From positions 10,324 through 74,323 of the forward strand of contig WHSR01000003.1 of assembly GCA_009379995.1 (NCBI GenBank): 64,000 nt of DNA, written 5' to 3'. The notes beneath the pieces were generated by a model. The model saw only the letters and a program-made list of their open reading frames with translations. It was not told the DNA's origin and did not search any database. Origin of the DNA: Streptosporangiales bacterium (GTDB taxonomy: Bacteria > Actinomycetota > Actinomycetes > Streptosporangiales > WHSR01). Both the position numbers and the translations under genes were made by a program. This document shows, one piece after another, positions 8,368 to 26,561 of the stretch (its first letter is position 1; every line of letters begins with the position of its first letter).

Positions 8368-8440
8368 CAGCGCCGCCATCGAAGGCGGTCGCTGCATGTC
8401 AGAAACGCGGATCAGCGCCGCCCGGGGCGACGCCACCAGC
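8368..8440 (-). promoter_or_regulatory. candidate transcription attenuator (alternative hairpins 1:2, 2:3, 3:4) of trpE(G)
   Basis: In RNA sense, GUCGCC-CCG-GGCGGC forms a hairpin directly after UGGUGG. The decamer GGCGGCGCUG occurs twice (plus-strand 8413-8422 and 8368-8377). The two copies flank its complement CAGCG(A)CCGCC (8384-8394). Confidence 0.45.
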
Positions 8441-11706: not shown

Positions 11707-11715
11707 GCGACGCGG

Positions 11716-12375
11716 ATGCCGACGAGGGCCCACCGGTTGCTGGGGATCGCCTTGGCGCTCGCCGCGGCCCTCGTGTTGTCGATAGCGCTCGTCCGCTCCG
11801 AGGGCGCCACCACGCCCACCGGAGAGGAGACCGGGACCGGCGACGACGAGCAGGTCATCACCACCGCCTACACCACCGGTTACGGCTGGTACGACAACAC
11901 CCCGCCCGGATCGGCGGTCATTTCCCACCCGGTGCTGCACAGACGTGCCGGCGGCGCCGGCACCCATGACGACCCCATCACCGTGGCGGTCGGGCACGAC
12001 CGATCCACCAGCAGGGACGCCCTCGACTACCCGCCCGGCACCAGGATCTACGTTCCGAACGTGCGGCGGTACTTCGTCGTCGAGGACACCTGCGGAGACG
12101 GGCCGCGCCCGCAGGACGGGCCCTGCCACGATGTGTCCGAGGCGCCGAGCGGGGCGACGACCTGGATAGACCTGTGGGTCGAGGGGCGGGGCGCGGACGA
12201 GGAGACGGTGCGGCGCTGTCAGGAGATCGTGACGAGCAGCGGCGGCGCGCTGCACACGATAGTGGTCAACCCGCGCCGCGACCACGCGGTGACCCCCGGC
12301 CCGATCCTGCGGGACGGCCGCTGCATCCGTCCCGGCGACGGCGGCTACGGCGACACCCCGGTGCGCGGCCGCTAG
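11716..12375 (+). CDS. secreted protein of unknown function
   Basis: 219 aa. Signal-peptide-like N-terminus MPTRAHRLLGIALALAAALVLSIALV. Strong G/C third-position bias. I recognise no family with confidence. The segment GYGWYDNTPPGSAVISHP...YVPNVRRYFVVEDTCGD is faintly reminiscent of a double-psi beta-barrel. Confidence 0.65.
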   Translation: MPTRAHRLLGIALALAAALVLSIALVRSEGATTPTGEETGTGDDEQVITTAYTTGYGWYDNTPPGSAVISHPVLHRRAGGAGTHDDPITVAVGHDRSTSRDALDYPPGTRIYVPNVRRYFVVEDTCGDGPRPQDGPCHDVSEAPSGATTWIDLWVEGRGADEETVRRCQEIVTSSGGALHTIVVNPRRDHAVTPGPILRDGRCIRPGDGGYGDTPVRGR

Positions 12376-12390
12376 CACCCCTGCGGGAGG

Positions 12391-13281
12391 TCACCGTCCG
12401 TCGACGCCGACATCCCGGTACAGCGACAGCAGCTCGTCCACCCCGCGGACGACGAGGTGCGGTCGCCGCGCGGGCGGCAGCCGCGCGAACGCGTCCACGC
12501 CGCCGATCCCGGTGGTGACGGCGATGGCCAGCGCCCGCCCGCGGTGCGCCATCGGCACCTCGAGCTCGGGATCGTCGCCCACCACGGCCAGATCCGCCGT
12601 CCTGGCGCCGAGACGCGCCCGGGCGGCACGCAGCACGTGCAGCGACGGCTTGCCCACGACCTCCACCCGGCAGCCGGTGAGACTTCTGATCATGGCCGTG
12701 ATGGCCCGCGACGTCCCTAGCGCCCTGCCCTCCGCGGTTGCGAAGAACATCGACTGCGATGCGCTGTAGAGGGTCGCGCCACCCCAGACCGCGTGGCAGG
12801 CGGCCTCCAGCGCGTCCATGGTGAACTCCCGGTACCAACCCACGAGCACCGCGTCGACCTTGCCTTCTTCGCCGGGCGACACGACCTCGATACCAGCGTC
12901 GCGCAGCGGTCGGGTCAGGCCCTCGGCGCCGAGGACCATCACCCGCCGGTATCCGCGCCGCTGGAAGGCGCCGACAGCGCCGCTCGCCGGCGTCATCACC
13001 GCGTCGTCACCGAGATCGAACCCGACCTCGCGCAGCATGCTGGCGTAGCGTTGCGGGGTCTGCGTCGTGCCGTTGGTGAGCATCACGTACGGCACGCCAC
13101 ATCGACGCAGCCAGGCGGTGATCTCCAACGCCCCCGGCAATGGCTTGAGCCCGTGGTTGCGCCGGTCGCCCAGCACCAGCGTGCCGTCCATGTCGAACAC
13201 GAAGCCGCGGACCGACCGGAGACGCTCGCGTACGGCTGGCGTCGGCCGGCTGGCGTCCGGGATGGCGAGGTCGTCAGGCAT
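12391..13281 (-). CDS. HAD-IIA family hydrolase (phosphatase-type)
   Basis: 296 aa. Motif I is FVFDMDGTLV, followed by MLTNGT, GKPS and VVGDD (HAD motifs II-IV). The ATG overlaps the upstream stop by 8 nt. Confidence 0.85.
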   Translation of the reverse strand: MPDDLAIPDASRPTPAVRERLRSVRGFVFDMDGTLVLGDRRNHGLKPLPGALEITAWLRRCGVPYVMLTNGTTQTPQRYASMLREVGFDLGDDAVMTPASGAVGAFQRRGYRRVMVLGAEGLTRPLRDAGIEVVSPGEEGKVDAVLVGWYREFTMDALEAACHAVWGGATLYSASQSMFFATAEGRALGTSRAITAMIRSLTGCRVEVVGKPSLHVLRAARARLGARTADLAVVGDDPELEVPMAHRGRALAIAVTTGIGGVDAFARLPPARRPHLVVRGVDELLSLYRDVGVDGR

Positions 13282-14761
13282 CGGCGCGGTCCATCCGTTC
13301 GTGGCGACGTAGCTCCAGGCGGAAGCCGGGCTTGTCGACGGTGAGGTCCGGCGAGTCCGGTCGCGACCCCAGCTCGCGCAGCAGTCCCAGCACAGGCGCC
13401 AGGTCCGGGTTGTAGTGCCGGTCCGCCGGCCCGGCGGCGAGCATCGCGTCGACCTGGTCCCCCGGCATGACGGCGCGCAGCAGCAGCTCCTCGTCGCTGA
13501 CGCCTCGCGGGAACCGGCGGCGAAGCTCGGCCGGCGTGGGCGGGGGTGGCTCCGCCATGATCTGCGCCGCCCTCGGTCGGTCGAGGATGCGGTCCTTGAC
13601 GTCGGGGTCGACAGCGCCGGTGGGGCGGCCGAACGTGCCGAGGATGTAGCGAATCACCTGGTCCGAGACGTTGGTGTAGCGCTCGTCGGCGACCACGTTG
13701 TACAGCGCCTGCGAGCAAACGATCTGCGGGAAGGGCGTGACCATGATCGGGTGGCCCAGCTCGGCGCGTACCCTTCCGACCTCGTCGATGACGGCGTCGA
13801 AGCGGTCTTCGAGGCCAAGCTCGGAAAGCTGACGCCGAAGCGTGGTCACGACTCCGCCCGGCACCTGGTGGCGGAGGAACGCGGCGTCGTACTCACGGGG
13901 CGTGCCGACCGGCCGGGATTCCGCGTCCGCCAGCCGGGCGAAGTACTCAGCGACGACGGCGAGCAGCCGGTCGTCGACGTCGACCGTGTGGCCGAGCTCG
14001 CGAAGGTTCGCCACTACCTGCTGGGCGTTCGGCAGCGAGGTGCCGTTCGCCAGCGACCCGCAGGCGACCTGCAGCACCTCGACGCCAAGCTCGGCGGCGG
14101 CCAGGTAGGTGAGCGGCGACAACCCCAGCGTGCAGTGCGAGTGCAGTTCGAGCGGCGTGCCGGAGAGCCGGGCGAGCACGGCAGGGACGAGAGTGCCCGC
14201 GCGTTCCGGCGAGAGCAGGCCGGACGGGTCCTTGATGTAGACGCGGTCGATGTTCGGCGAGGAGGCCATCTGGGCGGCCAGGTCTGCGTAGAAGGCGTCG
14301 TCGTGCACGGCGCTGACGGTGAAGGTCAGCGCCCCGACGATCTCCTCCCCGCCGGCCGCTCGGATCATCGCGGCCGTGGCGAACACCGCGTCGATGTCGT
14401 GCATCGGGTCGAGCACGACGAACCGGGTGATCCCGTTCGCGACCAGCCGTTCGTAGACCAGCCGCATGAACTCCGGGTGTGCGGCCTCCCAGGAGACGAA
14501 GCGGAAGCCGGTGCCGATGAACTGCAACGGCGTGTTCGGCATCGCGGCCCGGGTGAGCCGGATGCGCTCCCAGGGGTCCTCCCGGTGCAACCGCACCGCC
14601 ACGCCCATATGGGTGCTGGAGGTGAAGTCGAGCGCCCGGAGCCCGAGCCGATCCATCGCCGGCGCGATGCCCAGGATCTGCGCCGTGGTGAACCCCGTCG
14701 CCCCCCACAGGCTCTGGTTCCCGTCGCGGATCGACACGTCGAGGAGCTCGATGTCAGCCAC
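13274..14761 (-). CDS. carboxyltransferase subunit of a biotin-dependent carboxylase (pyruvate carboxylase B / oxaloacetate decarboxylase alpha / 5S type, no BCCP domain)
   Basis: GTG start at 14759-14761. Motifs: VADIELLDVSIRDGNQSLWG, EDPWERIRL, YIKDPSGLL, LELHSHCTLGLS. These match the metal-binding TIM-barrel CT domain. Confidence 0.85.
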   Translation of the reverse strand: MADIELLDVSIRDGNQSLWGATGFTTAQILGIAPAMDRLGLRALDFTSSTHMGVAVRLHREDPWERIRLTRAAMPNTPLQFIGTGFRFVSWEAAHPEFMRLVYERLVANGITRFVVLDPMHDIDAVFATAAMIRAAGGEEIVGALTFTVSAVHDDAFYADLAAQMASSPNIDRVYIKDPSGLLSPERAGTLVPAVLARLSGTPLELHSHCTLGLSPLTYLAAAELGVEVLQVACGSLANGTSLPNAQQVVANLRELGHTVDVDDRLLAVVAEYFARLADAESRPVGTPREYDAAFLRHQVPGGVVTTLRRQLSELGLEDRFDAVIDEVGRVRAELGHPIMVTPFPQIVCSQALYNVVADERYTNVSDQVIRYILGTFGRPTGAVDPDVKDRILDRPRAAQIMAEPPPPTPAELRRRFPRGVSDEELLLRAVMPGDQVDAMLAAGPADRHYNPDLAPVLGLLRELGSRPDSPDLTVDKPGFRLELRRHERMDRADA

Positions 14762-16118
14762 GGGCCGCCCCCACGCCTTCCAGGAACCGATCGAGGAGGG
14801 CGATGTCGGCGCCACCCCCGGCGAACTCCGGATCCGCGCAGAGCGCACGGTGCAGCGGCAGGTTCGTGGTGATCCCGTCGACGCGGCAACGGTCCAGCGC
14901 GTCGGCCAGCCGCGCCACCGCGTCGCCGCGGTCACGGCCACAAACGATCAGCTTGGCGACGAGCGAGTCGTAGAAGGGCGGGACCGCCGAACCCGCCTGT
15001 ACGTGCGTGTCGACACGGATCCCCGGTCCGGCGGGGAACACCGCCTCGGTCACCGTCCCGGGGCTGGGCCGAAAGCCACGCCGCCAGTCCTCGGCGTTGA
15101 TCCGGCATTCGATCGCGTGTCCGTTGGTCCGTACGTCCGACTGGGCGAGGGTGACCGGCCGACCCTCGGCGATCGCGATCTGCTCGGCCACCAGGTCCAG
15201 TCCGACGACCTCCTCGGTGACCGGGTGCTCGACCTGCACGCGCGCGTTCATCTCCAGGAAGTGGAAGGTGTCCCGGTCGAGGTCGACGAGGAACTCGACG
15301 GTGCCGATGCCGCGGTACCCGAGGCGCTCGCCGAACGCGACGGCGGCCCGGTGCATCTCGGCACGCAGCCGGTCACCCAGGTCCGGCGCCGGGGCCTCCT
15401 CCACGAGCTTCTGGTACCGACGCTGTACCGAACAGTCCCTGTCGCCCAGCTGGATCACCGTCTCCCCGTCGCCCAGCAGCTGCACCTCGACGTGCCGGCC
15501 GGACCGCACCAGGCGTTCCAGGTAGACGCGCGGGTCGCCGAACGCCGCCCGCGCCTCGGCCATCGCGCGCTCGACAGCCTCCGTTAGCCCGTGCGGGTCG
15601 TGGACCGGCTTCAGCCCGCGGCCACCCCCACCGCCGACGGCCTTGACGAGCACCGGGAAGCCGATGTCCTCGGCCAGCTCCCGTGCCTCGGTCACGCCGC
15701 GTACCTCGCCGCCCGGCATCACCGGCAGACCCGCCGCGACCGCGTGGTCGCGGGCCCGCAGCTTGTCGCCGGCCGCCGCCAGCTGCGCCTCGGTCGGGCC
15801 GACGAAGACGACGCCGGCCTCATCGCAGGCGCGTGCGAGCCGCGGATTCTCGGAGAGGAAGCCGTAGCCGGGATGGATCGCGTCGGCCTCTACCGCGAGC
15901 GCGGCGCCGACGACCGCCTCGACGTCGAGGTAACTCGCCGAGGAGCTCGCGGGGCCGATGCAGATCGTGCGATCGGCCAGACGCGCCGGCAGCGAGTCCA
16001 GGTCGGCCTCGGACGCGGCGAGCACGGCCTCGATGCCGAGGCGCTCGCAGGTACGCAGGATCCGTACGGCGATCTCGCCCCGGTTGGCGATGAGGACGCG
16101 TCGCAGGACCGGCCTCAT
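14754..16118 (-). CDS. accC: biotin carboxylase
   Basis: Real start is MRPVLRRVLIANRGEIAVRILRT (ATG 16116-16118). Motifs: GYGFLSEN, VKAVGGGGGRGL, HVEVQLLGD, EMNARVQVEHPVTE. The 185 aa upstream in the track ORF are off-frame junk. Confidence 0.9.
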   Translation of the reverse strand: MRPVLRRVLIANRGEIAVRILRTCERLGIEAVLAASEADLDSLPARLADRTICIGPASSSASYLDVEAVVGAALAVEADAIHPGYGFLSENPRLARACDEAGVVFVGPTEAQLAAAGDKLRARDHAVAAGLPVMPGGEVRGVTEARELAEDIGFPVLVKAVGGGGGRGLKPVHDPHGLTEAVERAMAEARAAFGDPRVYLERLVRSGRHVEVQLLGDGETVIQLGDRDCSVQRRYQKLVEEAPAPDLGDRLRAEMHRAAVAFGERLGYRGIGTVEFLVDLDRDTFHFLEMNARVQVEHPVTEEVVGLDLVAEQIAIAEGRPVTLAQSDVRTNGHAIECRINAEDWRRGFRPSPGTVTEAVFPAGPGIRVDTHVQAGSAVPPFYDSLVAKLIVCGRDRGDAVARLADALDRCRVDGITTNLPLHRALCADPEFAGGGADIALLDRFLEGVGAARG

Positions 16119-16642
16119 GCTGGCCGCGTCTCCGGTTCGATGCGCATCACTACGGCGTCCTGCTCGGCGAACTGGGCATCGGCCAGGCAGATCTCGGCCA
16201 CCCTGCCGCGGAAGCCGGCGTAGACCGAGTTCATCAGCTTCATCGTTTCGATGATGCCGACGACCGTTTCCTCGTCGACCCGGCTGCCGACCTCGACGAA
16301 CGGCGCCGCTCCCGGTCTGGGGGCCCGGTAGAACGTGCCGAGCAGCGGTGCGCGTACCTCGCGGAGGCCGTCCCGCTCCACCGGCGGCGGGCCGGGCGCC
16401 CCCGTCTCTGTGGTCGTCTCTGTAGTCGTCTCTGTGGTCGTCTCTGTGGTCGTCTCGCTGGCCGATCCTGCGGCCGGCAGCACGTTCGGCGACCCCGTCG
16501 CCTGCGACTCCTGCGTCCAACCGCCACCCGGGGCACGCCGAAGGGAGAGCCGGAAACGCTCGGTCTGCAGGTGCAGCTCGTCGTAGGGCGTGGCGTCGAG
16601 CAGCCGCAGGATGTCTTGCACGTCGTCGTTGGTCAGGTTCAC
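16115..16642 (-). CDS. accB: biotin carboxyl carrier protein
   Basis: 175 aa from GTG 16640-16642. The C-terminal biotinyl domain has the VGIIETMKLMNSV (MKLM) motif. A Thr/Glu/Pro-rich linker is present. There is a GTGA overlap with the upstream gene and an ATGA overlap with accC. Confidence 0.85.
   Translation of the reverse strand: MNLTNDDVQDILRLLDATPYDELHLQTERFRLSLRRAPGGGWTQESQATGSPNVLPAAGSASETTTETTTETTTETTTETGAPGPPPVERDGLREVRAPLLGTFYRAPRPGAAPFVEVGSRVDEETVVGIIETMKLMNSVYAGFRGRVAEICLADAQFAEQDAVVMRIEPETRPA
16404..16456. repeat. 12-bp tandem repeat x4.4 (gtctctgtggtc) encoding (TETT)n in the BCCP linker
   Basis: Direct reading gives gtctctgtggtc gtctctgtagtc gtctctgtggtc gtctctgtggtc gtctc. 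It is in-frame within accB. Confidence 0.9.
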
Positions 16643-17739
16643 CTCGCAGCTCCCCCGAGTCGGTCGAACACATGCTGGAAGGCCTTGCCCTTCGGCATCG
16701 CGACGGGGCCCTTTTCCCGGCCGGCCCACACCGTCTCCGGCCTGCTCTGCAGGACGAAGACGTTCTCGCCGGTGTTCGTGGCCGCCCCCGAGATGGCCCA
16801 TTCGATGTCCTGCGGTGCCCCGTAGTGGTTCTCGACGCGTCGTCCGAGGTCCGCCAGCAGTCGGATCTCGTCGTCGCTCAGGCAAGGCCGGTCCTGCAGG
16901 TCGGCGGGTACGGCCTCGTCGACCGCCCCGGCGCCGCCCGGGTTCATCCGGTGCTGGCGGAGCTTGCTCGACACCGACCGCTTGACGATTTCGCCGGTCA
17001 CCTTGCTGACGACGTAGGTGTCCGGGGTGACGTCGCCGCTGACGATGGCCGAGCCCAGACCCCAGCTCGCCTCGATGGCGATCACGGAGCGGTCCCCGGT
17101 GCTGGGGCTGCGGGTGAACATGACGCCGGAGCAGCGCGGGTCCACCATCCGCTGGATCACCACCGCCATGGCGAGGCCCCGCTCCGGCAGGTTGCGGCGC
17201 AGCCGGTAGCTCACCGACTCGACGCTGTACAGGCTCGCCCAGCACCTGCGCACGTGGTCGACCACCGCGTCCGCCCCGCGCACCCACAGGTACGTGTCCT
17301 GCAGGCCGGCGAAGCTGGCGTCCCCGCTGTCCTCGCCCGTCGCGCTGGAACGAACGGCCACCGGAGCGCCGGCGTCGGCGTCGTCCGGCTCCCGATGCAA
17401 CGCGCGGTAGCCTTCCGCGATCGCCGCACACAGGTCCTCCGGCAACGCCGCCATCTCGATGCGACGGCGGATGTCCGCGGTCACCCGCGCCACGGCGGCA
17501 TAGTCATCGGCGTCATCGGCGGCGTCGGCGGCGAGGCTCTCGATTTCCCGGCGGATCGCCCCGGCTGGGTCGAGTGCTTGGACGGCACGCTCGAAGGCCG
17601 ACGTGGTCACGAGGCAGCCGGGCGGGACGCGCAGGCCGGCCCTCGTCAGCTCGCCGAGGCTCGCTCCCTTGCCTCCCGCCGTCGGCCGATCGTCGATGCC
17701 GATGTCGGCGAGGCTGCGAACGAGGTAGGGGTTCGTCAC
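16639..17739 (-). CDS. PEP/pyruvate-binding (PPDK_N, ATP-grasp) subunit of a split PEP-synthase/phenylphosphate-synthase-like phosphotransferase
   Basis: 366 aa. Motifs: GGKGASLGELTRAGLRVPPG, VAVRSSATGED, FAGLQDTYL, MAVVIQRMV, QDIEWA. It has no swivel-His domain of its own. Confidence 0.85.
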   Translation of the reverse strand: MTNPYLVRSLADIGIDDRPTAGGKGASLGELTRAGLRVPPGCLVTTSAFERAVQALDPAGAIRREIESLAADAADDADDYAAVARVTADIRRRIEMAALPEDLCAAIAEGYRALHREPDDADAGAPVAVRSSATGEDSGDASFAGLQDTYLWVRGADAVVDHVRRCWASLYSVESVSYRLRRNLPERGLAMAVVIQRMVDPRCSGVMFTRSPSTGDRSVIAIEASWGLGSAIVSGDVTPDTYVVSKVTGEIVKRSVSSKLRQHRMNPGGAGAVDEAVPADLQDRPCLSDDEIRLLADLGRRVENHYGAPQDIEWAISGAATNTGENVFVLQSRPETVWAGREKGPVAMPKGKAFQHVFDRLGGAAR

Positions 17740-17749
17740 GGGCCATCCA

Positions 17750-19573
17750 TCAGTCGAGGAGCCGCACGACGCCGCGGTCGCCGTCGACCCGTACCCGCTG
17801 GCCGGTCTTGATGCGCTTGGTCGCCTGCCCGGTGCCGACCACTGCGGGCATGCCGTACTCGCGCGCGACGATCGCGGCGTGCGACATCGTGCCGCCGATG
17901 TCGGAGACCGCCGCCTTGATCTTGCCGAACACCGGTCCCCAGCTCGGCGCGGTCACCGGGCAGACGAGGATCTCGCCCTCGCGGATCTGGCCGATCTCGT
18001 TGACGTCCTTCAGTACGCGGGCGGTCCCCTCGACCACGCCGGGAGAGGCCCCGTACCCGTGCACCTCTTTCTCGTCGAGCTCGTCCGAAGCGCGGGACCA
18101 GGTCTCGATCGTCTCGGCCGTGATGCCCCACAGCATCTTGACCGCTGGGTCGTTCAGCGCCTCCGGCACGGGGCCGAGGGCCGGCGGCGGCGACCAATCC
18201 CGCAGCACGCCGAGCATGCGCTTGCGCTCGGCGATGATCGGCCGGAGGTGGGCCGCGCCCAGCGGCCGGCCCCCTGACGCCCAGGCCAGCATCACGTCGG
18301 CGAGTGCCGCGTCGACCTCGGTGTGGTGCAGCTGGAAGACGTCGTCGGCCTCGTCGAGCACTCCTTGGCGGCGCAGGAGCTCACCGAACGCCCGGATCTT
18401 CTGGAAGAACCGGGTGGTGAACCAGTGCTCGCAGTAGAACTTGTGGTCCTCCACGTAGGGGAAGACCAGCCGGCAGAGGCCGAGCATCTGGTCGAAGGCG
18501 GCGCGCTCCTCCTCGCTCGCGAGCAGGTCGCGGTACTCGGCCGCGATGCTCTCGCGCTCCTGCACGAGCGTCTCGGTGGGCCGGACAAGCGACTCGCCGT
18601 CGCGCGCCTTCCGGACATAGCGGGTCAGCGCCGCGAAGGGCACCGACAGGTCCTCGTTCCAGCTCAGATGGTGGTGGTAGAAGCCGTCCCCGGTGGAGAC
18701 GTGGAACCAGGGCGTACGCGCCTCCTCGAACCCCGCCAGCCAGCGAGCACCCGCCTCCCCGCGCTTGCCCAACGCGTCGAGGACCTCGGCCGGGTCGCAC
18801 CCCTCGACGAAAAGGTCGTCGACGCCGCAGTCGACCGCCAGCTTCGCCAGCCGCTTGAGCTCGTCGTCCGGCCGGTACATGATCACCTCGACGCCGGCGA
18901 CCATGCGGGCCACCATCTGGTCGGGGATCTCCGGAAACGCCTTCTTGCAGAACTCGAAGAAGACCACGTAGGCGCCGTAGCCGAGCATGAGGAACTCGGT
19001 GTGGTGGTGCCACATCTTCGAGTACAGGTCGAGGCAACGGTGGTAGTTCTCCCGCACGTAGTGGTTCTGCGCGACTCCGGTGGAGTTCTTGACCACGTCG
19101 ATGTCCTCGAACTCGGGCAACTCCGGCACCGTGATCGCCTCGATCTCGCCGATCAGGCCCTGAATCCGGGTCTTCCAGCCGTCGTACAGCTGGTCCCAGT
19201 TCTCGTAGTAGTAACCGGCCCGCTCCTGGAAGATCGCGGCCCGCCGCTCGATCTCGGCCGGCTCGGTGACCGGGATCGCGGTGATGTAGACGCGTCCGTT
19301 GACGATCCGGTGCTCGATGCCCAACGTCGTGGGGAAGGCGAACACCCGCGCGGTGTTCGCGCCGATCGCGGTGTACGGGACCTCGGCGGTGATCGTGTCG
19401 AAGGCCGGCATCGGCTCGGGGAAGTGCATGGAGTTGTAGAACCAGAAGCGCTCGTCGTCCTCTGGCTGGAACCGGGTGAAGTACGGGTACATCGACCGCC
19501 AGCCCTCGGCGCCGGGCACGTCGGCGACCTGCGAGGGCAGCGGGAAGCTGCGGATATCGCCCTTCTGGTCCAT
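17750..19573 (-). CDS. PEP-utilizing-enzyme mobile-domain subunit (phenylphosphate synthase alpha-like: substrate domain + phosphohistidine swivel)
   Basis: ATG at 19571-19573 lies behind GAGGAA. The C-terminus is GASPGVVEGTARV...ILVCPVTAPSWGPVFGKIKAAVSDIGGTMSHAAIVAREYGMPAVVG, which contains the catalytic His motif. The ~470-aa N-terminal domain has no catalytic motif I recognise. Confidence 0.85.
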   Translation of the reverse strand: MDQKGDIRSFPLPSQVADVPGAEGWRSMYPYFTRFQPEDDERFWFYNSMHFPEPMPAFDTITAEVPYTAIGANTARVFAFPTTLGIEHRIVNGRVYITAIPVTEPAEIERRAAIFQERAGYYYENWDQLYDGWKTRIQGLIGEIEAITVPELPEFEDIDVVKNSTGVAQNHYVRENYHRCLDLYSKMWHHHTEFLMLGYGAYVVFFEFCKKAFPEIPDQMVARMVAGVEVIMYRPDDELKRLAKLAVDCGVDDLFVEGCDPAEVLDALGKRGEAGARWLAGFEEARTPWFHVSTGDGFYHHHLSWNEDLSVPFAALTRYVRKARDGESLVRPTETLVQERESIAAEYRDLLASEEERAAFDQMLGLCRLVFPYVEDHKFYCEHWFTTRFFQKIRAFGELLRRQGVLDEADDVFQLHHTEVDAALADVMLAWASGGRPLGAAHLRPIIAERKRMLGVLRDWSPPPALGPVPEALNDPAVKMLWGITAETIETWSRASDELDEKEVHGYGASPGVVEGTARVLKDVNEIGQIREGEILVCPVTAPSWGPVFGKIKAAVSDIGGTMSHAAIVAREYGMPAVVGTGQATKRIKTGQRVRVDGDRGVVRLLD

Positions 19574-19625
19574 CGGTTCCTCCAAGCGGGAGAGGGGGCC
19601 GCGGCGCGGGGGCGCGAGCCGCCGT

Positions 19626-21701
19626 TCAGGTGGTCGAGTAGTCCTGTTGTGTTCGCGCGTAGTCGATGAAGTAATCCAGCGCCTGCGGGTTGGCCATCGC
19701 GTTGCGGTTGGCCGCCCGCTCCGCCGGCACCCCGAGGAGGATCTTGCGGACCGGTACCTCCATCTTCTTGCCGGTGAGCGTCACCGGGATCTCCGGCACC
19801 TGGACGACCCGGTCCGGCACGTGGCGCGGCGTGTACGCGCGGCGCAGCCGGTCGCGGATCTTCTGCTCGACGGAGGCATCCAGCGTCGTCCCGTCCGCGA
19901 CGCTGACGAACAGCGGCATGAAGGATCCCCCGCCGGGGAGGTCGAGGTTGACGATGAGTGCATCGTCGATCTCCTCGATCAGCTCCAGCGCTCGGTAGAT
20001 CTCCGCGGTGCCGATGCGCACGCCGTGGCGGTTCAGTGTGGCGTCCGAGCGTCCCAGCACGAAGCAGCCGCCGCGCCGGTTCACCCGGAAGAAGTCACCG
20101 TGCCGCCATACCCCCGGGAAGTCCGCGAAGTAGGTCTCGCGGTAGCGCCGGCCGTCCTTGTCACCCCACAGGAACACCGGCATCGAGGGCATGGGTTCGG
20201 TGATCACGAGTTCACCGACCTCGTCGACAACGCCCTGGCCCCGCTCGTTGAACGCGTACGCGGCCACGCCCAGGGACCGCGCCTGGATCTCGCCGGCGTA
20301 GACGGGCAGCGTCGGCACGCCGCCCACGAACCCCGTGCAGCAGTCGGTGCCGCCGCTGCCGGTGGCCACCCACAGGTCCTGTTTGACGTTGCGGTAGAAC
20401 CAAGCGGTGCACTGCGGTGACACCGGCGAGCCGGCGGGCATGATCGCGCGCAGCCGGGACAGGTCGTACCTCTCCCCCGGGACGATGCCCGCCTTGGACA
20501 TCTGGTCGACGTAGGCGGGACTGGCGCCGAAGAAGTCGACCCGACAGTCCTGGGCCATCTTCCACAGCACGTCGACGTCGGGGTAGGCGGGATTGCCGTC
20601 GTACAGCACCGGACACACACCGGGCAGCAACGTGCTCACTATGAAGTTCCACATCATCCAGCCGGTCGTGGTGAAGAAGAACGCCCGTTCGCCGGGTCGA
20701 AGGTCCATGTGGAAGGTCTGCAGCTTCAGCTGCTCCAACAGGATTCCGCCGTGGCCGTGCACGATCGCCTTGGGCAGCCCGGTGGTGCCGGACGAGAACA
20801 GGATCCACAGCGGGTGGTCGAAGGGGACCTGCTCGAACTCGAACGCCTCCGCCGGCACCGGCGGGTGATCGAGCACGGCGTCCCACGCCATCGCGTCGCT
20901 CCTCGGCGGCTCGGGATCAGCGGGGTTCAGGTACGGCAGGTAGACGACATCCTGGAGATCCTTGAGCGCATCGATGATCTGCCGCAGCTCGGCGCGCCGG
21001 TCGTACGCCTTGCCCCCGTAGCGGTAACCGTCGACGCAGAACAGAACCTTCGGCGCCAGCTGCTGGAAGCGGTCGAGCACGCCGCGCCAGCCGAAGTCCG
21101 GTGAGCAGGATGCCCAGACGGCGCCGATGCTGGTGGTGGCGAGCATCGCGATGACCGTCTGCGGGATGTTCGGCATGTACGCGACTACCCGGTCGCCCGG
21201 TCGAACACCCATCTCGCGCAGGCGGGTGGCGAGGATACGCACCTGCCCGGCCAGGTCCTCCCACGGGACGCCGGTCAGCGGCGTGGTCTCGGTCAAGAAC
21301 ATCAGCGCATCGGTGCCCGGCCGCTCGTGCCGGAGGGCGTGCTGCGCGTAGTTGATCCGGGCCCCGGGGAACCATTGAGCACCGGGCATCGCGCGGCTGC
21401 CCAGCACCCGGGTCGGTGGGGTAGATGACTGGATGTCGAAGTAGTCCCAGATCGCGCCCCAGAACCCGTCGAGGTCCGCGACAGACCAGCTCCACAGGGC
21501 GTCGTAGTCGTCGAAATGCAGGCCGCGCTCGCTTTCCAACCACTTCACGAACGCCGTCAGATTGGAGTTCGCCGCCCGCTCCGCGTCCGGCTTCCAGAGC
21601 AGGTCGCCTTCGCGGACCTCGCTGCTGTCCGGGCTGCTGTCCGGGCTGATGTCCGTGCTGCTATCCGAGCGTCCACGGGGGGCGGGAAAAGGAGGCCGCA
21701 T
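19626..21701 (-). CDS. acetoacetate-CoA ligase (acetoacetyl-CoA synthetase)
   Basis: Motifs: LLWKPDAERAANSNLTAFVKWLE, WFPGARINYAQHAL, FSSGTTGLPKAIVH, WMMWNF. The length and order are typical of AACS. ATG 21699-21701 is the only canonical start upstream of the conserved LW, apart from TTG 21737. Confidence 0.9.
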   Translation of the reverse strand: MRPPFPAPRGRSDSSTDISPDSSPDSSEVREGDLLWKPDAERAANSNLTAFVKWLESERGLHFDDYDALWSWSVADLDGFWGAIWDYFDIQSSTPPTRVLGSRAMPGAQWFPGARINYAQHALRHERPGTDALMFLTETTPLTGVPWEDLAGQVRILATRLREMGVRPGDRVVAYMPNIPQTVIAMLATTSIGAVWASCSPDFGWRGVLDRFQQLAPKVLFCVDGYRYGGKAYDRRAELRQIIDALKDLQDVVYLPYLNPADPEPPRSDAMAWDAVLDHPPVPAEAFEFEQVPFDHPLWILFSSGTTGLPKAIVHGHGGILLEQLKLQTFHMDLRPGERAFFFTTTGWMMWNFIVSTLLPGVCPVLYDGNPAYPDVDVLWKMAQDCRVDFFGASPAYVDQMSKAGIVPGERYDLSRLRAIMPAGSPVSPQCTAWFYRNVKQDLWVATGSGGTDCCTGFVGGVPTLPVYAGEIQARSLGVAAYAFNERGQGVVDEVGELVITEPMPSMPVFLWGDKDGRRYRETYFADFPGVWRHGDFFRVNRRGGCFVLGRSDATLNRHGVRIGTAEIYRALELIEEIDDALIVNLDLPGGGSFMPLFVSVADGTTLDASVEQKIRDRLRRAYTPRHVPDRVVQVPEIPVTLTGKKMEVPVRKILLGVPAERAANRNAMANPQALDYFIDYARTQQDYSTT

Positions 21702-21753
21702 GTGCAGAGGGTGACCCAAGAGCCCAAGCGGAGACAAGGATTGCCTACCAGCT

Positions 21754-21768
21754 TTTCACCTGGTGAAA
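21754..21768. promoter_or_regulatory. 15-bp perfect palindrome TTTCACCtGGTGAAA in the AACS/IclR divergent spacer (candidate IclR operator)
   Basis: Seven-bp arms are perfect around one central base. It is the only strong dyad in the 94-bp spacer and overlaps the alternative GTG (21763) of the regulator. Confidence 0.4.
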
Positions 21769-21795
21769 TTGAACCCTTGGTCGCGAGAGGTCCCG

Positions 21796-22608
21796 ATGCG
21801 TCACTACAAGGTCAAACCGATCCACGCGCTGTCCCGGGGGCTGGAGGTTCTCCAGGCTCTGCAGCAGATGCGCGCCGCGAGCCTTCACGACCTGCACCAG
21901 GTGACCGGCATCCCGAAGAGCACGCTGACCCGCATCCTCTACACCTGCCACCGCCAAGGTCTGGTCTGGCAGCGCATGGCCGACGGGGCGTTCCTGCCCA
22001 GCCACACCGTGGCGCGGCGGGTCAGGCTCGAGGACGCCAGCTGGCTGGCCGAGATCAGCTCGCCGGTGCTGGAAGGGCTTTGCGAGCGGGTGATGTGGCC
22101 GTCGGTGCTGTCGGTCCCCCGTCTCGACTACATGGAGGTCGTCGAGACCAACAGCCCACGCGCCTACTTCGACGAGGTACCGGTGAAGCCGATCGGCTTT
22201 CGCGCCAACATGCTGCGCTCCGCGTCCGGCCGGGCCTACCTCGCGTTCTGCCCCGACCAGGAGCGCGATGCCGTACTGCGCCGCCTTCGCGAGCGCGACG
22301 TACCGGGCCACGAGCTCGCGCACCACGACGAGACGATCCGACGGCTGGTCGAGGCGACCCGCAGGCGTGGGTACAGCGTACGGGCGCCGGACTTCGGCGG
22401 CGACTACGCGAAGACCCGCGACGAGGTCGACGACGGCCGCAACTCCATCGCCATGCCGATCCGGGTGGGCGGGCACGTGCTCGGCTGCATCAACCTCACC
22501 TGGCGAAGGAAGCAGATGACCCCCGCACAGATGGCCGAGCGCCATCTCGAGGACCTGGGCGACGCCGTGCGAACCGTGGAGAAGCGTGCCGCGGAGGCAC
22601 TGGGTTAA
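21796..22608 (+). CDS. IclR-family transcriptional regulator
   Basis: MRHYKVKPIHALSRGLEVLQALQQMRAASLHDLHQVTGIPKSTLTRIL is the wHTH. A C-terminal IclR effector domain follows (GRAYLAFCP...SIAMPIRVGGHVLGCINL). It is divergent from the carboxylase operon. Confidence 0.85.
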   Translation: MRHYKVKPIHALSRGLEVLQALQQMRAASLHDLHQVTGIPKSTLTRILYTCHRQGLVWQRMADGAFLPSHTVARRVRLEDASWLAEISSPVLEGLCERVMWPSVLSVPRLDYMEVVETNSPRAYFDEVPVKPIGFRANMLRSASGRAYLAFCPDQERDAVLRRLRERDVPGHELAHHDETIRRLVEATRRRGYSVRAPDFGGDYAKTRDEVDDGRNSIAMPIRVGGHVLGCINLTWRRKQMTPAQMAERHLEDLGDAVRTVEKRAAEALG

Positions 22609-22654
22609 CCGGTTCGGTAAGCCATCTTCCTCCCCAGAAGATCAATTCAGGGTA

Positions 22655-22668
22655 TAGGAGCGCTCCCG
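22655..22668. promoter_or_regulatory. CebR/CelR-type operator, box 1 (TAGGAGCGCTCCCG)
   Basis: Matches the known 14-bp palindrome TGGGAGCGCTCCCA at 12 of 14 positions. It lies upstream of the GH5-ABC-LacI operon. Confidence 0.6.
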
Positions 22669-22685
22669 GAGGTGGGAGAACGTTA

Positions 22686-22699
22686 TGAGAGCGCTCCCA
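22686..22699. promoter_or_regulatory. CebR/CelR-type operator, box 2 (TGAGAGCGCTCCCA)
   Basis: Matches TGGGAGCGCTCCCA at 13 of 14 positions. It is 31 bp centre-to-centre from box 1 and about 90 bp upstream of the GH5 ATG. Confidence 0.65.
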
Positions 22700-22789
22700 T
22701 CCCAGGTTGACGCCGTGTTTCCGCTCATGTTTCCCTGACTCCACTTATTCGGTTCAGCTAGCGGGCGACCAGCTGGGAAGAGAGCCGCG

Positions 22790-26472: not shown

Positions 26473-26478
26473 TGAGCC

Positions 26479-26521
26479 GTCACCATTCCTCTCCCGCGTG
26501 AGGTGGGAGGGGAATGGTGAC
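26479..26521 (+). terminator. strong intercistronic stem-loop between the SBP and permease genes (17-bp stem, 16/17 paired)
   Basis: GTCACCATTCCTCTCCC (26479-26495), loop gcgtgaggt, GGGAGGGGAATGGTGAC (26505-26521). It lies just after the SBP stop. This is a candidate partial terminator or mRNA-stabilising element. Confidence 0.55.
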
Positions 26522-26561
26522 CCTGCCATGATCCCGCCGACGATGAGACGAGGAGGCGCGC

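What the first reader, a model, noticed from the sequence alone, without database searches (positions are those of the whole stretch)
12391..22608. Operon coupling a split PEP-synthase-like phosphotransferase to a three-part biotin carboxylase, acetoacetate-CoA ligase and a HAD phosphatase: candidate undescribed carboxylation pathway
Seen in the sequence: seven co-directional genes run from 21701 down to 12391, beside a divergent IclR regulator. The last five are translationally coupled. The junctions are a GTGA overlap at 16639-16642, an ATGA overlap at 16115-16118, and 8-nt overlaps at 14754-14761 and 13274-13281. The two phosphotransferase genes are only 10 nt apart. The gene content is: (1) an acetoacetate-CoA ligase; (2) a 607-aa subunit ending in the phosphohistidine swivel motif GGTMSHAAIVAREYGMPAVVG, paired with a 366-aa ATP-grasp PPDK_N subunit (GGKGASLGEL); (3) a stand-alone BCCP (ETMKLMN), a biotin carboxylase, and a pyruvate-carboxylase/oxaloacetate-decarboxylase-type carboxyltransferase; (4) a HAD-IIA hydrolase. 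Established knowledge: phenylphosphate synthase of Thauera is built from about 70 and 40 kDa subunits of exactly this kind and activates phenol before carboxylation, there by a UbiD-type enzyme. Acetone carboxylase works through phosphoenol-acetone. From memory, a biotin carboxylase (XccABC) plus an acetoacetyl-CoA-synthetase-like ligase (AcsA) has been proposed for 4-hydroxyacetophenone carboxylation in Aromatoleum aromaticum EbN1. Inference: the combination is AMP-forming phosphorylation, then biotin-dependent carboxylation on a pyruvate-like CT site, then beta-ketoacid CoA ligation. That fits ATP-driven carboxylation of a methyl ketone or enol (acetone-, butanone- or acetophenone-like), or of a phenolic compound, to a beta-keto acid that is then captured as its CoA ester. 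I know of no characterised system with this gene combination. An alternative is a pyruvate/PEP/oxaloacetate anaplerotic module that merely happens to sit next to AACS.
Basis: partly seen in the sequence, partly recalled or inferred. Interest (0 to 1): 0.85.

Follow-up and report, generated by a model that had tools for sequence, protein, structure and literature searches.

The report
Known hydroxyacetophenone/acetovanillone (Hpe/Acv) catabolic operon
This gene cluster is a new, uncharacterised copy of a bacterial pathway first described in 2022: it phosphorylates, carboxylates and then dephosphorylates lignin-derived phenolic methyl ketones such as 4-hydroxyacetophenone and acetovanillone, so it is real and conserved but not a new kind of pathway.

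Summary
Seven co-directional minus-strand genes (12391-21701) face a divergent IclR gene. Every stated overlap, gap and motif was verified.

The novelty claim does not hold. A split dikinase, a three-subunit biotin carboxylase with a pyruvate-carboxylase-type CT, a HAD-IIA phosphatase and an AcsA-like ligase together make up the published hydroxyphenylethanone pathway. That pathway is hpeHICBADEF in Rhodococcus rhodochrous GD02 and acvABCDEF in Sphingobium SYK-6, and it is related to XccABC/AcsA of Aromatoleum EbN1.

In that pathway the kinase phosphorylates the phenolic OH. The carboxylase accepts only the aryl phosphate and carboxylates the acetyl methyl group. The HAD enzyme then removes the phosphate, and the ligase makes the beta-ketoacyl-CoA.

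The window's beta subunit is 43.7% identical to crystallised HpeI (PDB 9GOJ). The seven proteins are 34-51% identical to a GD02-type Rhodococcus cluster and 63-70% identical (BCCP 43%) to a cluster in the bisphenol A/4-hydroxyacetophenone degrader P. putida YC-AE1.

The order E-H-I-C-B-A-D recurs in 31 of 59 fully flanked genome loci across several phyla. The CT keeps its metal ligands but lacks the LLRGQN motif of pyruvate enzymes. No HpeF hydrolase lies in the window.

Verdict: a new member of a known kind, of low interest.

The parts
21796..22608 (+). IclR-family transcriptional regulator, divergent from the operon.
   Evidence: HTH_IclR and IclR_C domains. It is 66% identical to the regulator beside the P. 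putida YC-AE1 cluster and 49% to the one in R. leguminosarum, with alignments starting at 21796. IclR genes also sit upstream of hpe in GD02. A divergent IclR homologue was found in 20 of the 80 GTDB loci.
21755..21767 (.). Perfect palindrome TTCACCTGGTGAA in the regulator/operon intergenic region; candidate IclR operator (inferred).
   Evidence: It is the only match to TTCACNNNGTGAA in 64 kb, with 0 expected in 100 shuffles. A TTCRC-N3-GYGAA palindrome sits at the equivalent place in all 15 regions tested: the window and 14 related loci, including Streptomyces, Geodermatophilaceae and the P. putida plasmid. Binding was not tested.
19626..21701 (-). HpeE-like AMP-forming beta-ketoacid-CoA ligase (acetoacetyl-CoA synthetase family). 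Predicted 4-hydroxyphenyl-beta-ketopropionate-CoA ligase.
   Evidence: NF002937 at 957 bits (cut-off 639) and TIGR01217 at 830 bits. 717 bits to S. lividans acetoacetate-CoA ligase 4WD1. 69% identical to the ligase of the P. putida YC-AE1 cluster, 53% to R. leguminosarum HpeE-position gene, 44% to the GD02-type HpeE. GD02 HpeE is itself described as an AcsA2 homologue. It is upstream of the kinase genes in 31 of 59 fully flanked loci.
17750..19573 (-). HpeH/AcvA-like dikinase component: N-terminal substrate-binding region plus C-terminal phosphohistidine swivel domain.
   Evidence: The database's precomputed annotation also lists PF27448, marked faint at related loci. NF006153 at 804 bits (cut-off 578). 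The motif S-D-I-G-G-T-M-S-H fits the T/SxxGGxxxH motif around catalytic His581 of HpeH. 48% identical to the GD02-type HpeH and 57% to R. leguminosarum.
16639..17739 (-). HpeI/AcvB-like ATP-grasp (PPDK_N) component of the dikinase.
   Evidence: PF01326 at 334 bits. The best PDB hit is 9GOJ, the HpeI crystal structure (E 1.5e-73; 43.7% identity over 339 aa).
16115..16642 (-). HpeC/AcvC/XccB-like stand-alone biotin carboxyl carrier protein, with a (ETTT)n linker.
   Evidence: PF00364 and TIGR00531. MKL biotinylation motif. 36-43% identical to HpeC-position proteins.
14754..16118 (-). HpeB/AcvD/XccC-like biotin carboxylase.
   Evidence: Biotin_carb_N, CPSase_L_D2 and Biotin_carb_C domains. 70% identical to P. 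putida YC-AE1, 59% to R. leguminosarum, 51% to the GD02-type protein.
13274..14761 (-). HpeA/AcvE/XccA-like carboxyltransferase (TIM-barrel, pyruvate-carboxylase-type fold) without a fused BCCP domain.
   Evidence: PF02436 and PF00682. It scores below every curated PycB/OadA/5S cut-off. Metal ligands are kept, but the LLRGQN and RDxHQS substrate motifs are replaced by residues invariant among Hpe-type CTs. 69% identical to P. putida YC-AE1, 61% to S. bisphenolicum, 52% to R. leguminosarum, 46% to the GD02-type protein.
12391..13281 (-). HpeD/AcvF-like HAD-IIA (NagD-family) phosphatase. Predicted to hydrolyse the aryl phosphate of the carboxylated product.
   Evidence: Hydrolase_6 and Hydrolase_like domains; TIGR01460. 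DMDGT motif I. PDB relatives include NagD and p-nitrophenyl phosphatases. It lies directly after the CT in 46 of 59 fully flanked loci. 63% identical to P. putida and 34% to the GD02-type protein.

Best explanation
The cluster is an Hpe/Acv-type operon for catabolism of 4-hydroxyphenyl methyl ketones. The likely substrates are 4-hydroxyacetophenone and acetovanillone, and possibly acetosyringone.

The proposed steps follow the characterised homologues and are inferred here by homology and synteny.

1. The two-component dikinase (beta = ATP-grasp subunit; alpha = substrate-binding plus swivel-His subunit) uses ATP to give AMP and Pi. It transfers the beta-phosphate through a phosphohistidine onto the phenolic hydroxyl.
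2. The three-subunit biotin enzyme (BC, BCCP, CT) uses a second ATP and bicarbonate. It carboxylates the acetyl methyl group of the aryl phosphate, giving a 4-phosphophenyl-beta-ketopropionate.
3. The HAD-IIA phosphatase removes the phosphate.
4. The AcsA-like ligase converts the beta-keto acid to its CoA thioester.
5. An enzyme not encoded in this window cleaves the thioester to 4-hydroxybenzoate or vanillate plus acetyl-CoA. Candidates are an HpeF/CouO-type hydrolase, VceAB analogues or a thiolase.

The divergent IclR protein probably controls the operon through the conserved palindrome at 21755-21767.
For: Gene content and order H-I-C-B-A-D match the published hpeHICBAD and acvABCDEF operons, and overlapping ORFs are also a feature of the GD02 operon. 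In those systems the kinase, carboxylase and phosphatase activities were shown in vitro and the genes are essential for growth on acetovanillone.

Direct comparison with a characterised protein: the beta subunit's best PDB hit is HpeI (9GOJ), at 43.7% identity.

A Rhodococcus plasmid cluster (L006) serves as a proxy for GD02. Its HpeI is 97.6% identical to 9GOJ, and its predicted subunit masses are close to those reported for GD02. It is collinear with the window and 34-51% identical for all seven proteins. Characterised systems are equally far from each other: AcvE-HpeA 42%, XccA-HpeA 45%, AcvE-XccA 55%.

Closer relatives (CT 61-69%) lie on plasmids of the bisphenol A degraders P. putida YC-AE1 and S. 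bisphenolicum AO1. The YC-AE1 paper reports p-hydroxyacetophenone as a BPA breakdown product and reports that YC-AE1 consumes it completely.

The catalytic His motif of HpeH is present.

The CT retains its metal ligands but has Hpe-specific substitutions in the motifs that pyruvate enzymes share.

The block is conserved. Of 59 fully flanked GTDB loci, 40 have HI kinase + BC + CT + HAD, and 31 also have the ligase upstream as in the window. Metagenome contigs show the same core with a divergent IclR gene.
Against: No activity, induction or growth data exist for this organism, which is an uncultured MAG.

Identity to the biochemically characterised GD02 proteins is only 34-51%. For the kinase this is no higher than the roughly 45% reported between HpeH, CreH (cresol) and PpsA (phenol). 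The kinase's substrate therefore rests on its linkage to the carboxylase, not on sequence.

I could not obtain the SYK-6, EbN1, A. macra or N. aromaticivorans sequences to place the proteins in a tree.

No HpeF/CouO homologue, thiolase, pobA, vanAB or pca genes are in the 64 kb window.

The window-type lineage and the GD02-type lineage both occur in Blastococcus saxobsidens strains. This may mean they differ in substrate preference.

The order of dephosphorylation and carboxylation is described differently for SYK-6 and GD02.
Confidence: 0.8

Rival explanations
1. The enzyme logic is the same (phenol phosphorylation, biotin-dependent side-chain carboxylation, dephosphorylation, CoA ligation), but the physiological substrate is a different phenolic ketone from 4-hydroxyacetophenone or acetovanillone. 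Examples would be acetosyringone, a hydroxypropiophenone or another isomer. On this view the window-type lineage (E-HICBAD) is a functional paralogue of the GD02-type lineage.
For: The window proteins are only 34-51% identical to the GD02-type cluster.

Both lineages occur in Blastococcus saxobsidens strains. The GD02-type copy carries extra upstream flavoprotein and SDR genes plus E and F.

The dikinase is reported to help set pathway specificity, and the SYK-6, GD02 and A. macra pathways differ in acetosyringone activity.

The window-type lineage is very widespread and strongly conserved, with alpha about 80% identical across more than 100 protein clusters.
Against: The nearest clusters from cultured, studied strains are in bisphenol A degraders. 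One of these strains, YC-AE1, is reported to produce p-hydroxyacetophenone from BPA and to consume it.

Characterised Acv, Xcc and Hpe systems that share substrates are just as divergent from each other.

The two lineages were seen in different assemblies of one species, not shown to be in one genome.
Confidence: 0.14
2. The kinase phosphorylates the enol of acetone or butanone, the biotin enzyme carboxylates it to acetoacetate or 3-oxopentanoate, and a true acetoacetate-CoA ligase captures the product.
For: The ligase scores above the curated cut-off of the acetoacetate-CoA ligase models and gives 717 bits to S. lividans AACS. Many loci, including this one, lack the HpeF hydrolase.
Against: All characterised two-component homologues of the kinase (HpeHI, AcvAB, CreHI, PpsAB) phosphorylate phenolic hydroxyls.

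HpeCBA does not act on unphosphorylated ketones, and its product keeps the phosphate.

By inference, an enol phosphate would be consumed during carboxylation, leaving no job for the strictly linked HAD phosphatase.

GD02 HpeE is itself an acetoacetyl-CoA-synthetase homologue, so the AACS model hit does not discriminate.

Known acetone carboxylases are a different, hydantoinase-type family, and none is present.
Confidence: 0.04
3. This is an anaplerotic module: a split PEP synthase plus a multi-subunit pyruvate carboxylase or oxaloacetate decarboxylase that merely sits next to an acetoacetate-CoA ligase.
For: The nearest PDB relatives of the CT are PycB, OadA and the 5S transcarboxylase. The beta subunit's NCBIfam hits are led by PEP synthase models, all below cut-off.
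Against: Neither kinase subunit has the PEP/pyruvate-binding domain. The alpha subunit has only the swivel domain plus a large N-terminal region, and it meets a separate NCBIfam family.

The CT is below all PycB/OadA/5S cut-offs, for example 301 bits against 402. It has no fused BCCP.

The CT replaces the LLRGQN and RDxHQS motifs shared by PycB, OadA and the 5S subunit with residues invariant in Hpe-type CTs.

The CT is linked to a HAD phosphatase in 46 of 59 fully flanked loci and to a phenolic-type kinase in 47 of them.
Confidence: 0.02

Closest known systems
Hpe pathway, hpeHICBADEF of Rhodococcus rhodochrous GD02 (Dexter et al. 2022, PMC9618137; HpeHI enzymology and HpeI structure 9GOJ, PMC12167813)
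   Same: It has the same seven protein families: H, I, C, B, A, D and E. The order H-I-C-B-A-D is the same, with overlapping ORFs. IclR-type regulator genes lie upstream. The catalytic His motif is shared. The beta subunit's best PDB match is HpeI.
   Different: Identity is 34-51%, measured through the 97.6%-identical JS3073 proxy and 9GOJ. The ligase gene lies upstream of the kinase genes instead of after hpeD. There is no hpeF (Amidohydro_2 hydrolase) in the window. The residue before the catalytic His is Ser, as in CreH and PpsA, not Cys. No flanking transposases were found among the window ORFs scanned.
Acv system, acvABCDEF of Sphingobium sp. SYK-6 (Higuchi et al. 2022, bioRxiv 10.1101/2022.04.28.489975)
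   Same: It is a six-gene core in the same order: two-component kinase, then BCCP, BC and CT, then HAD phosphatase. No HpeF homologue is in the cluster.
   Different: SYK-6 uses an AraC-type activator (AcvR), not IclR. It has no ligase in the cluster and uses VceA/VceB downstream. Its sequences could not be retrieved here, so identities are unknown.
MarK-type acetovanillone clusters (Novosphingobium aromaticivorans Saro_1862-1858, PMC12624787) and the uncharacterised plasmid clusters of P. putida YC-AE1 and Sphingomonas bisphenolicum AO1
   Same: The carboxylase, phosphatase, ligase and IclR regulator are the closest named relatives found. For P. putida these are CT 69%, BC 70%, HAD 63%, ligase 69% and IclR 66%. 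The P. putida cluster shares the ligase-first order and the palindrome.
   Different: In those clusters the kinase is a single UPF0261/Tm-1-like protein (MarK type), not homologous to the alpha/beta pair. The P. putida cluster also carries the amidohydrolase after the HAD gene.
XccABC/AcsA of Aromatoleum aromaticum EbN1 (proposed 4-hydroxyacetophenone carboxylase of anaerobic p-ethylphenol degradation)
   Same: It is a three-subunit biotin carboxylase of the same family plus an acetoacetyl-CoA-synthetase-like ligase, with the same proposed substrate. An Aromatoleum MAG locus (L018) has CT 68%, BC 71%, HAD 67% and ligase 72% identity to the window.
   Different: Xcc has been assigned by proteomics and homology only. 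Phosphorylation of its substrate was suggested later, not shown. L018 has a MarK-type kinase. EbN1 sequences were not retrieved here.
Phenylphosphate synthase PpsAB(C) and cresol kinase CreHI
   Same: They are homologous two-component dikinases that phosphorylate a phenolic OH through a swivel histidine. They are reported to be about 45% identical to HpeH.
   Different: They are coupled to a UbiD-type phenylphosphate carboxylase (Pps) or to P450/oxidation genes (Cre), not to a biotin carboxylase and HAD phosphatase. No such partners are in the window.

Membership tests
Hpe/Acv hydroxyphenylethanone pathway cluster | Two-component small-molecule dikinase: an ATP-grasp subunit (HpeI/AcvB) plus a subunit with a substrate-binding region and a swivel domain carrying the T/SxxGGxxxH catalytic histidine (HpeH/AcvA) | tested here: met
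   PF01326 in beta and PF00391 at the alpha C-terminus. The motif SDIGGTMSH is present. Beta is 43.7% identical to HpeI 9GOJ. Alpha is 48% identical to the GD02-type HpeH.
Hpe/Acv hydroxyphenylethanone pathway cluster | Three separate subunits of a biotin-dependent carboxylase (BCCP, BC, and a PYC_OADA-type CT without fused BCCP) immediately downstream of the kinase genes | tested here: met
   Domains. Identities are 36-51% to the GD02-type cluster and 43-70% to the P. putida cluster. Residues N15, T84, G85, R87, F88 and P179 are invariant among Hpe-type CTs.
Hpe/Acv hydroxyphenylethanone pathway cluster | NagD-like HAD-IIA phosphatase (HpeD/AcvF) directly after the CT gene | tested here: met
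   The gene at 12391-13281 overlaps the CT stop by 8 nt. It belongs to the HAD-IIA family. The same position is occupied in 46 of 59 fully flanked loci.
Hpe/Acv hydroxyphenylethanone pathway cluster | AcsA-like AMP-forming ligase (HpeE) for the beta-keto acid; present in GD02 and A. macra, absent from the SYK-6 operon | tested here: met
   A gene is present at 19626-21701 and is 44% identical to the GD02-type HpeE. Its position differs: it is upstream, as in 31 of 59 fully flanked loci.
Hpe/Acv hydroxyphenylethanone pathway cluster | Enzyme for the final C-C cleavage (HpeF/CouO Amidohydro_2 hydrolase, or VceAB) | tested here: not met
   tblastn with two HpeF-position proteins found nothing in the 64 kb window. 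The only Amidohydro_2 domain, at 4404-6101, is fused to an NAD-binding domain and gave no tblastn match to the two HpeF-position proteins. This feature is not universal: SYK-6 lacks it in its cluster. The remaining roughly 78 kb of the contig was not available.
Hpe/Acv hydroxyphenylethanone pathway cluster | Phosphorylation of 4-hydroxyacetophenone or acetovanillone, carboxylation only of the phosphorylated form, and induction by these compounds | not testable with these tools
   This needs enzyme assays or expression data. None exist for this MAG.
Hpe/Acv hydroxyphenylethanone pathway cluster | Kinase subunits fall in the hydroxyphenylethanone clade, separate from the Cre and Pps clades (Dexter 2022, Figs S3/S4) | tested here: inconclusive
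   Reference sequences (WP_229583467, WP_014074980, WP_041646519, WP_011013724, WP_107221732) could not be fetched. Searches seeded with the JS3073 alpha subunit and the S. bisphenolicum CT returned no entries named for GD02, SYK-6, A. macra, EbN1 or N. aromaticivorans. Pairwise identity to HpeI (43.7%) does not by itself separate the clades.
Two-subunit pyruvate carboxylase / oxaloacetate decarboxylase / 5S transcarboxylase | CT scoring above the curated family cut-offs, with a fused C-terminal BCCP (PycB/OadA) and the conserved RDxHQS and LLRGQN motifs | tested here: not met
   The best score is 301 bits against a cut-off of 402, and all other models are further below. There is no biotinyl domain in the CT. 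The motifs read RDGNQS and FIGTGFR in the alignments to 5KS8, 2NX9 and 1S3H. That the LLRGQN arginine contacts the pyruvate carboxylate is from my memory of the PC literature, not tested here.
PEP synthase / pyruvate phosphate dikinase | C-terminal PEP/pyruvate-binding TIM-barrel domain in addition to the ATP-grasp and swivel domains | tested here: not met
   No such domain is in alpha or beta. All PEP synthase and PPDK models are far below cut-off. The literature states that homology is limited to the grasp and swivel domains.
Phenylphosphate synthase/carboxylase system and acetone/acetophenone carboxylases | UbiD/UbiX-type carboxylase subunits (Ppc), or hydantoinase-type Acx/Apc subunits, next to the kinase | tested here: not met
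   Pfam scans of the ORFs called across the window found no UbiD, UbiX or hydantoinase-family domains.

The most novel reading that the evidence does not exclude
The window belongs to a distinct, very widespread lineage of Hpe-like clusters with the ligase first and IclR plus a TTCACCnGGTGAA operator. It is found in Streptosporangiales, Streptomyces, Geodermatophilaceae, Acidobacteriota and Burkholderiales. It is only 34-51% identical to the characterised Rhodococcus enzymes, and it occurs alongside the GD02-type lineage within one species.

Its main natural substrate could therefore be a phenolic ketone, or another phosphorylatable enolisable compound, outside the 4-hydroxyacetophenone/acetovanillone/acetosyringone set. 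That would make it a functionally new branch of phosphorylation-dependent biotin carboxylases.
Probability: 0.12. Interest if true: 0.4.

Novelty: new member of a known kind. Interest (0 to 1): 0.15.

Why it matters
As a discovery it matters little. The gene combination, its chemistry and its rough distribution were published between 2022 and 2026, and this copy adds an uncultured Streptosporangiales example.

It has three modest uses.

1. Annotation. Public records call these proteins 'phosphoenolpyruvate synthase', 'biotin carboxyl carrier protein', 'acetoacetate-CoA ligase' and 'HAD hydrolase-like'. They can be renamed as components of a hydroxyphenylethanone pathway.

2. Ecology. The carboxyltransferase has at least 587 relatives among GTDB species representatives, and there are thousands of metagenomic homologues. 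This suggests that phosphorylation-dependent carboxylation of lignin-derived phenolic ketones is more common in soil bacteria than the first report implied. This agrees with the 2025 MarK survey.

3. Engineering. The ligase-first, IclR-controlled variant and its conserved operator offer parts for lignin-valorisation strains.

Tried and rejected
1. Characterised reference sequences. I tried to obtain sequences for GD02, SYK-6, A. macra, EbN1 and N. aromaticivorans. Two protein searches, seeded with the JS3073 alpha subunit and the S. bisphenolicum CT, returned only unnamed or other-species entries. The MarK paper's datasets are not held. The only direct link to a characterised protein came through PDB 9GOJ.

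2. HpeF. tblastn with the R. leguminosarum and P. putida amidohydrolases found nothing in the window. The Amidohydro_2 fusion at 4404-6101 was considered and not accepted as HpeF.

3. Promoter and terminator scan of 11500-23000. It gave one promoter-like site, inside the ligase gene on the wrong strand, and no terminator, so it is uninformative in this 70% G+C genome.

4. Pyruvate carboxylase/PEP synthase reading. Rejected on domain content, curated cut-offs and CT motifs.

5. Acetone/butanone reading. Rejected on the properties of all characterised homologues.

6. Downstream aromatic genes. I looked in the window for pobA, vanAB, pca, thiolase, UbiD and hydantoinase genes and found none.

7. 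Not run. I did not run structure prediction or the 50%-representative search, because neither would change the verdict.

Full report
**1. The observation**

The window is about 70% G+C. It comes from a metagenome-assembled 'Streptosporangiales bacterium'. Six of the seven proteins match deposited entries MQA83358-83364 exactly, on a 142.6 kb contig.

On the minus strand lie seven co-directional genes:
- an acetoacetate-CoA-ligase-family enzyme (19626-21701);
- a 607-aa protein whose only Pfam domain is a C-terminal PEP-utilizers swivel domain (17750-19573);
- a 366-aa PPDK_N ATP-grasp protein (16639-17739);
- a stand-alone BCCP (16115-16642);
- a biotin carboxylase (14754-16118);
- a PYC_OADA/HMGL-type carboxyltransferase (13274-14761);
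- a HAD-IIA hydrolase (12391-13281).

An IclR gene is divergent from them.

I read the junctions base by base.

There are two minor corrections. The IclR start is more likely the ATG at 21796 than the GTG at 21763. The alpha start is the ATG at 19573.

**2. What it is**

In Rhodococcus rhodochrous GD02 the operon hpeHICBADEF encodes:
- a two-component kinase, HpeHI;
- a three-subunit biotin carboxylase, HpeCBA;
- a NagD-like phosphatase, HpeD;
- an AcsA2-like CoA synthetase, HpeE;
- a CouO-like hydrolase, HpeF.

The biochemistry is established for that strain. HpeHI phosphorylates 4-hydroxyacetophenone and acetovanillone. HpeCBA carboxylates the 4-phospho compounds but not the free phenols. 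HpeD dephosphorylates the carboxylated products.

Sphingobium SYK-6 has the homologous and syntenic acvABCDEF operon, which is essential for growth on acetovanillone and acetosyringone.

Later work added four things:
- HpeHI enzymology and a crystal structure of HpeI;
- a non-homologous single-subunit kinase, MarK, that replaces HpeHI in Novosphingobium;
- a heterologous comparison of the GD02, SYK-6 and Actinomadura macra operons;
- a genome survey that found 25 representative genomes with the heterodimeric kinase colocalised with the carboxylase and phosphatase genes, and 27 with marK.

**3. Testing membership**

Direct comparison with a characterised protein was possible once. The beta subunit's best PDB hit is 9GOJ, the HpeI structure, at E 1.5e-73 and 43.7% identity over 339 residues.

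An unannotated Rhodococcus sp. JS3073 plasmid carries a collinear H-I-C-B-A-D-E-F cluster. It has 4-nt ORF overlaps. Its HpeI is 97.6% identical to 9GOJ. Its predicted subunit masses are close to those reported for GD02, for example 57.5 against 57.4 kDa for the CT. I used it as a proxy for GD02.

Against that proxy the window proteins are 48% (H), 43% (I), 36% (C), 51% (B), 46% (A), 34% (D) and 44% (E) identical. These values are low. They are still typical of the family: published identities are 42% for AcvE-HpeA, 45% for XccA-HpeA, 55% for AcvE-XccA, and about 45% among HpeH, CreH and PpsA.

It follows that kinase sequence alone cannot tell a hydroxyphenylethanone kinase from a cresol or phenol kinase. 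The assignment rests on the tight linkage to the carboxylase and phosphatase.

The catalytic motif around His581 of HpeH (T/SxxGGxxxH) is present as SDIGGTMSH. The residue before the His is Ser, as in CreH and PpsA, rather than the Cys of HpeH.

**4. Closer relatives**

A tblastn of the CT against plasmids found four related clusters.
- P. putida YC-AE1: CT 69%, BC 70%, HAD 63%, ligase 69%, IclR 66%.
- Sphingomonas bisphenolicum AO1 pBAR1: CT 61%.
- Sphingobium yanoikuyae: CT 61%.
- A Rhizobium leguminosarum plasmid with the full regulator-H-I-C-B-A-D-E-F order: 37-59% (47-59% apart from the BCCP).

YC-AE1 and AO1 are bisphenol A degraders. The YC-AE1 transcriptome paper names p-hydroxyacetophenone as a BPA breakdown product and reports that YC-AE1 consumes it completely.

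In the P. putida and Sphingomonas clusters the kinase is a Tm-1-like/UPF0261 (MarK-type) protein. The P. putida cluster otherwise shares the window's ligase-first order. The kinase module has therefore been exchanged between otherwise collinear operons.

**5. Conservation as a unit**

A scan of one genome per GTDB species, using a five-member CT alignment, found at least 587 relatives. The best 80 are 63-80% identical. They come from Streptosporangiaceae, Streptomyces, Blastococcus, Geodermatophilus, Modestobacter, Prauserella, Pseudonocardia, Acidobacteriota, Burkholderiales, Steroidobacteraceae, Geobacter and an Aromatoleum MAG.

Of the 59 loci with enough flanking DNA:
- 41 have the alpha/beta kinase next to the carboxylase;
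- 6 have a MarK-type kinase;
- 46 have the HAD gene directly after the CT;
- 31 have the ligase upstream exactly as in the window;
- 11 of those 31 also carry an HpeF-like amidohydrolase after the HAD gene, including the nearest relative, L009.

Metagenome contigs carrying alpha subunits that are about 80% identical show the same IclR/H-I-C-B-A-D core without the ligase.

**6. Why it is not a pyruvate/PEP module**

Neither kinase subunit has a PEP/pyruvate-binding domain. The alpha subunit meets its own NCBIfam family, NF006153, at 804 bits against a cut-off of 578.

The CT scores below every curated PycB, OadA and 5S model and has no fused BCCP.

In alignments with PycB 5KS8, OadA 2NX9 and the 5S subunit 1S3H, the CT keeps the metal-site Asp, Lys and His-x-His. 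It replaces RDxHQS with RDGNQS, LLRGQN with FIGTGFR, and KDMAG with KDPSG. The replacement residues are invariant across the five Hpe-type CTs aligned, including the GD02-type one. That the LLRGQN arginine binds the pyruvate carboxylate is from my recollection of the pyruvate carboxylase literature.

**7. Mechanism**

These steps were shown in homologues and are inferred here.

1. The beta subunit presents ATP. The swivel His of alpha is pyrophosphorylated, the gamma-phosphate is lost, and the beta-phosphate is passed to the phenolate. The products are AMP, Pi and an aryl phosphate.
2. BC carboxylates biotin on the BCCP using ATP and bicarbonate. The CT transfers CO2 to the acetyl methyl group of the aryl phosphate.
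3. The HAD enzyme hydrolyses the phosphate. Its PDB relatives include NagD and p-nitrophenyl phosphatases.
4. The AcsA-like ligase makes the CoA ester.

The final cleavage enzyme is not in the window. SYK-6 also encodes that step elsewhere.

The SYK-6 authors proposed that dephosphorylation precedes carboxylation. The GD02 data show carboxylation of the phosphate ester. That point is not settled across the family.

**8. Regulation**

A perfect palindrome, TTCACCTGGTGAA, lies at 21755-21767 in the divergent intergenic region. It is unique in the window, with 0 matches expected by chance. A TTCRC-N3-GYGAA element is found at the equivalent place in all 15 regions examined, from Streptosporangiaceae to the P. 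putida plasmid. I propose it as the IclR operator. This is inference only.

**9. Residual uncertainty and the most novel reading**

Blastococcus saxobsidens assemblies carry both a window-type cluster and a GD02-type cluster.
- The window-type cluster (L067) is 57-73% identical to the window (BCCP 44%).
- The GD02-type cluster (L089) is 51-64% identical to JS3073 for H, I, B, A and D (E 44%). It sits behind a flavin amine-oxidase-like gene and an SDR gene and is followed by E, F and a Zn-ADH.
- Spirillospora has the same GD02-type layout without F or the Zn-ADH.

Two deep lineages in one species could mean different preferred substrates. I could not show that both lie in one genome, and I could not place SYK-6, EbN1 or Novosphingobium in either lineage.

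I give about 0.8 to 'Hpe/Acv-type pathway for 4-hydroxyphenyl methyl ketones' and about 0.14 to the same chemistry on a different phenolic ketone. The aliphatic-ketone and anaplerotic readings together get a few per cent.

**10. Verdict**

The interpretation has the right chemistry class but is wrong on novelty and on the site and role of phosphorylation. This is a new member of a known kind. Interest is low (0.15).

Noticed in passing
window 21755-21767; also L004, L009, L011-L015, L049, L053, L054, L056, L067, L075, L082, L085: There is a conserved palindrome, TTCACCnGGTGAA (core TTCRC-N3-GYGAA), between the divergent IclR gene and the operon. It is unique in the window and present in all 15 regions examined across phyla. 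It is a likely IclR operator and, as far as I saw, is not described in the papers read.
   Followed up: partly
Homologue alignments start at the ATG at 21796, and the 281-aa version is absent from the protein collection. The gene probably starts at 21796.
   Followed up: partly
window 16403-16456 and 21621-21667: There are two in-frame 12-nt tandem repeats. One has 4.5 copies and encodes (ETTT)n in the BCCP linker. The other has 3.9 copies and encodes an SPDS-rich N-terminal extension of the ligase. They may be slippage-prone linker sequence.
   Followed up: no
L004 (P. putida YC-AE1 plasmid) vs window 12391-22608: These are otherwise collinear clusters with 63-70% identical enzymes and regulator (BCCP 43%), yet they carry non-homologous kinases: a MarK/Tm-1-like protein in one and the alpha/beta dikinase in the other. 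This is a clean case of module exchange inside one operon type. Six of the 59 fully flanked GTDB loci are MarK-type, including Geobacter argillaceus.
   Followed up: partly
L089 (Blastococcus saxobsidens GCA_010682065.1) and L090 (Spirillospora sp. NBC_00431) vs L067 (B. saxobsidens DSM 44509): A second, GD02-type Hpe lineage occurs in the same species as the window-type lineage. It is preceded by a flavin amine-oxidase-like gene and an SDR gene, which may feed an alcohol or alkylphenol precursor into the ketone. Presence of both in one genome was not shown.
   Followed up: partly
window 4404-6101 (-) and 6101-8398 (-): A 565-aa fusion of an NmrA-like NAD(P)-binding domain with an Amidohydro_2 domain directly follows a chorismate-binding/GATase (PabB/TrpE-like) fusion gene. 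It gave no tblastn match to the two HpeF-position amidohydrolases tested. Its function is unknown.
   Followed up: partly
L001/L002 (metagenome contigs ERZ25039604, ERZ25039553): This variant of the cluster lacks the ligase. Here the IclR gene is co-transcribed with a Zn-dependent alcohol dehydrogenase and sits next to a branched-chain-type ABC transporter. These may serve uptake and oxidation of a 1-(4-hydroxyphenyl)ethanol-like precursor.
   Followed up: no
PMC9618137 Table 1: Table 1 of the GD02 paper labels HpeB as carboxyltransferase and HpeA as biotin carboxylase. The reported masses (HpeA 57.4 kDa, HpeB 49.3 kDa), the gene order and the SYK-6 paper indicate the reverse: HpeA is the CT and HpeB is the BC.
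   Followed up: yes
window 22790-30376 (+): Next to the cluster lie a 650-aa GH5 cellulase-family protein and a five-gene peptide/oligosaccharide-type ABC transporter (SBP_bac_5, two permeases, two ATPases), followed by a LacI regulator. This suggests a plant-polymer-degrading lifestyle and fits lignocellulose-derived substrates.
   Followed up: no
window 50285-52789 (-) and 52882-56625 (+): A divergent pair of large signalling proteins is present. One is an 834-aa HATPase_c_2/PAS/GAF/SpoIIE phosphatase. The other is a 1247-aa hybrid histidine kinase with at least four HAMP domains, a GAF domain and a receiver domain. Both are unrelated to the finding.
   Followed up: no
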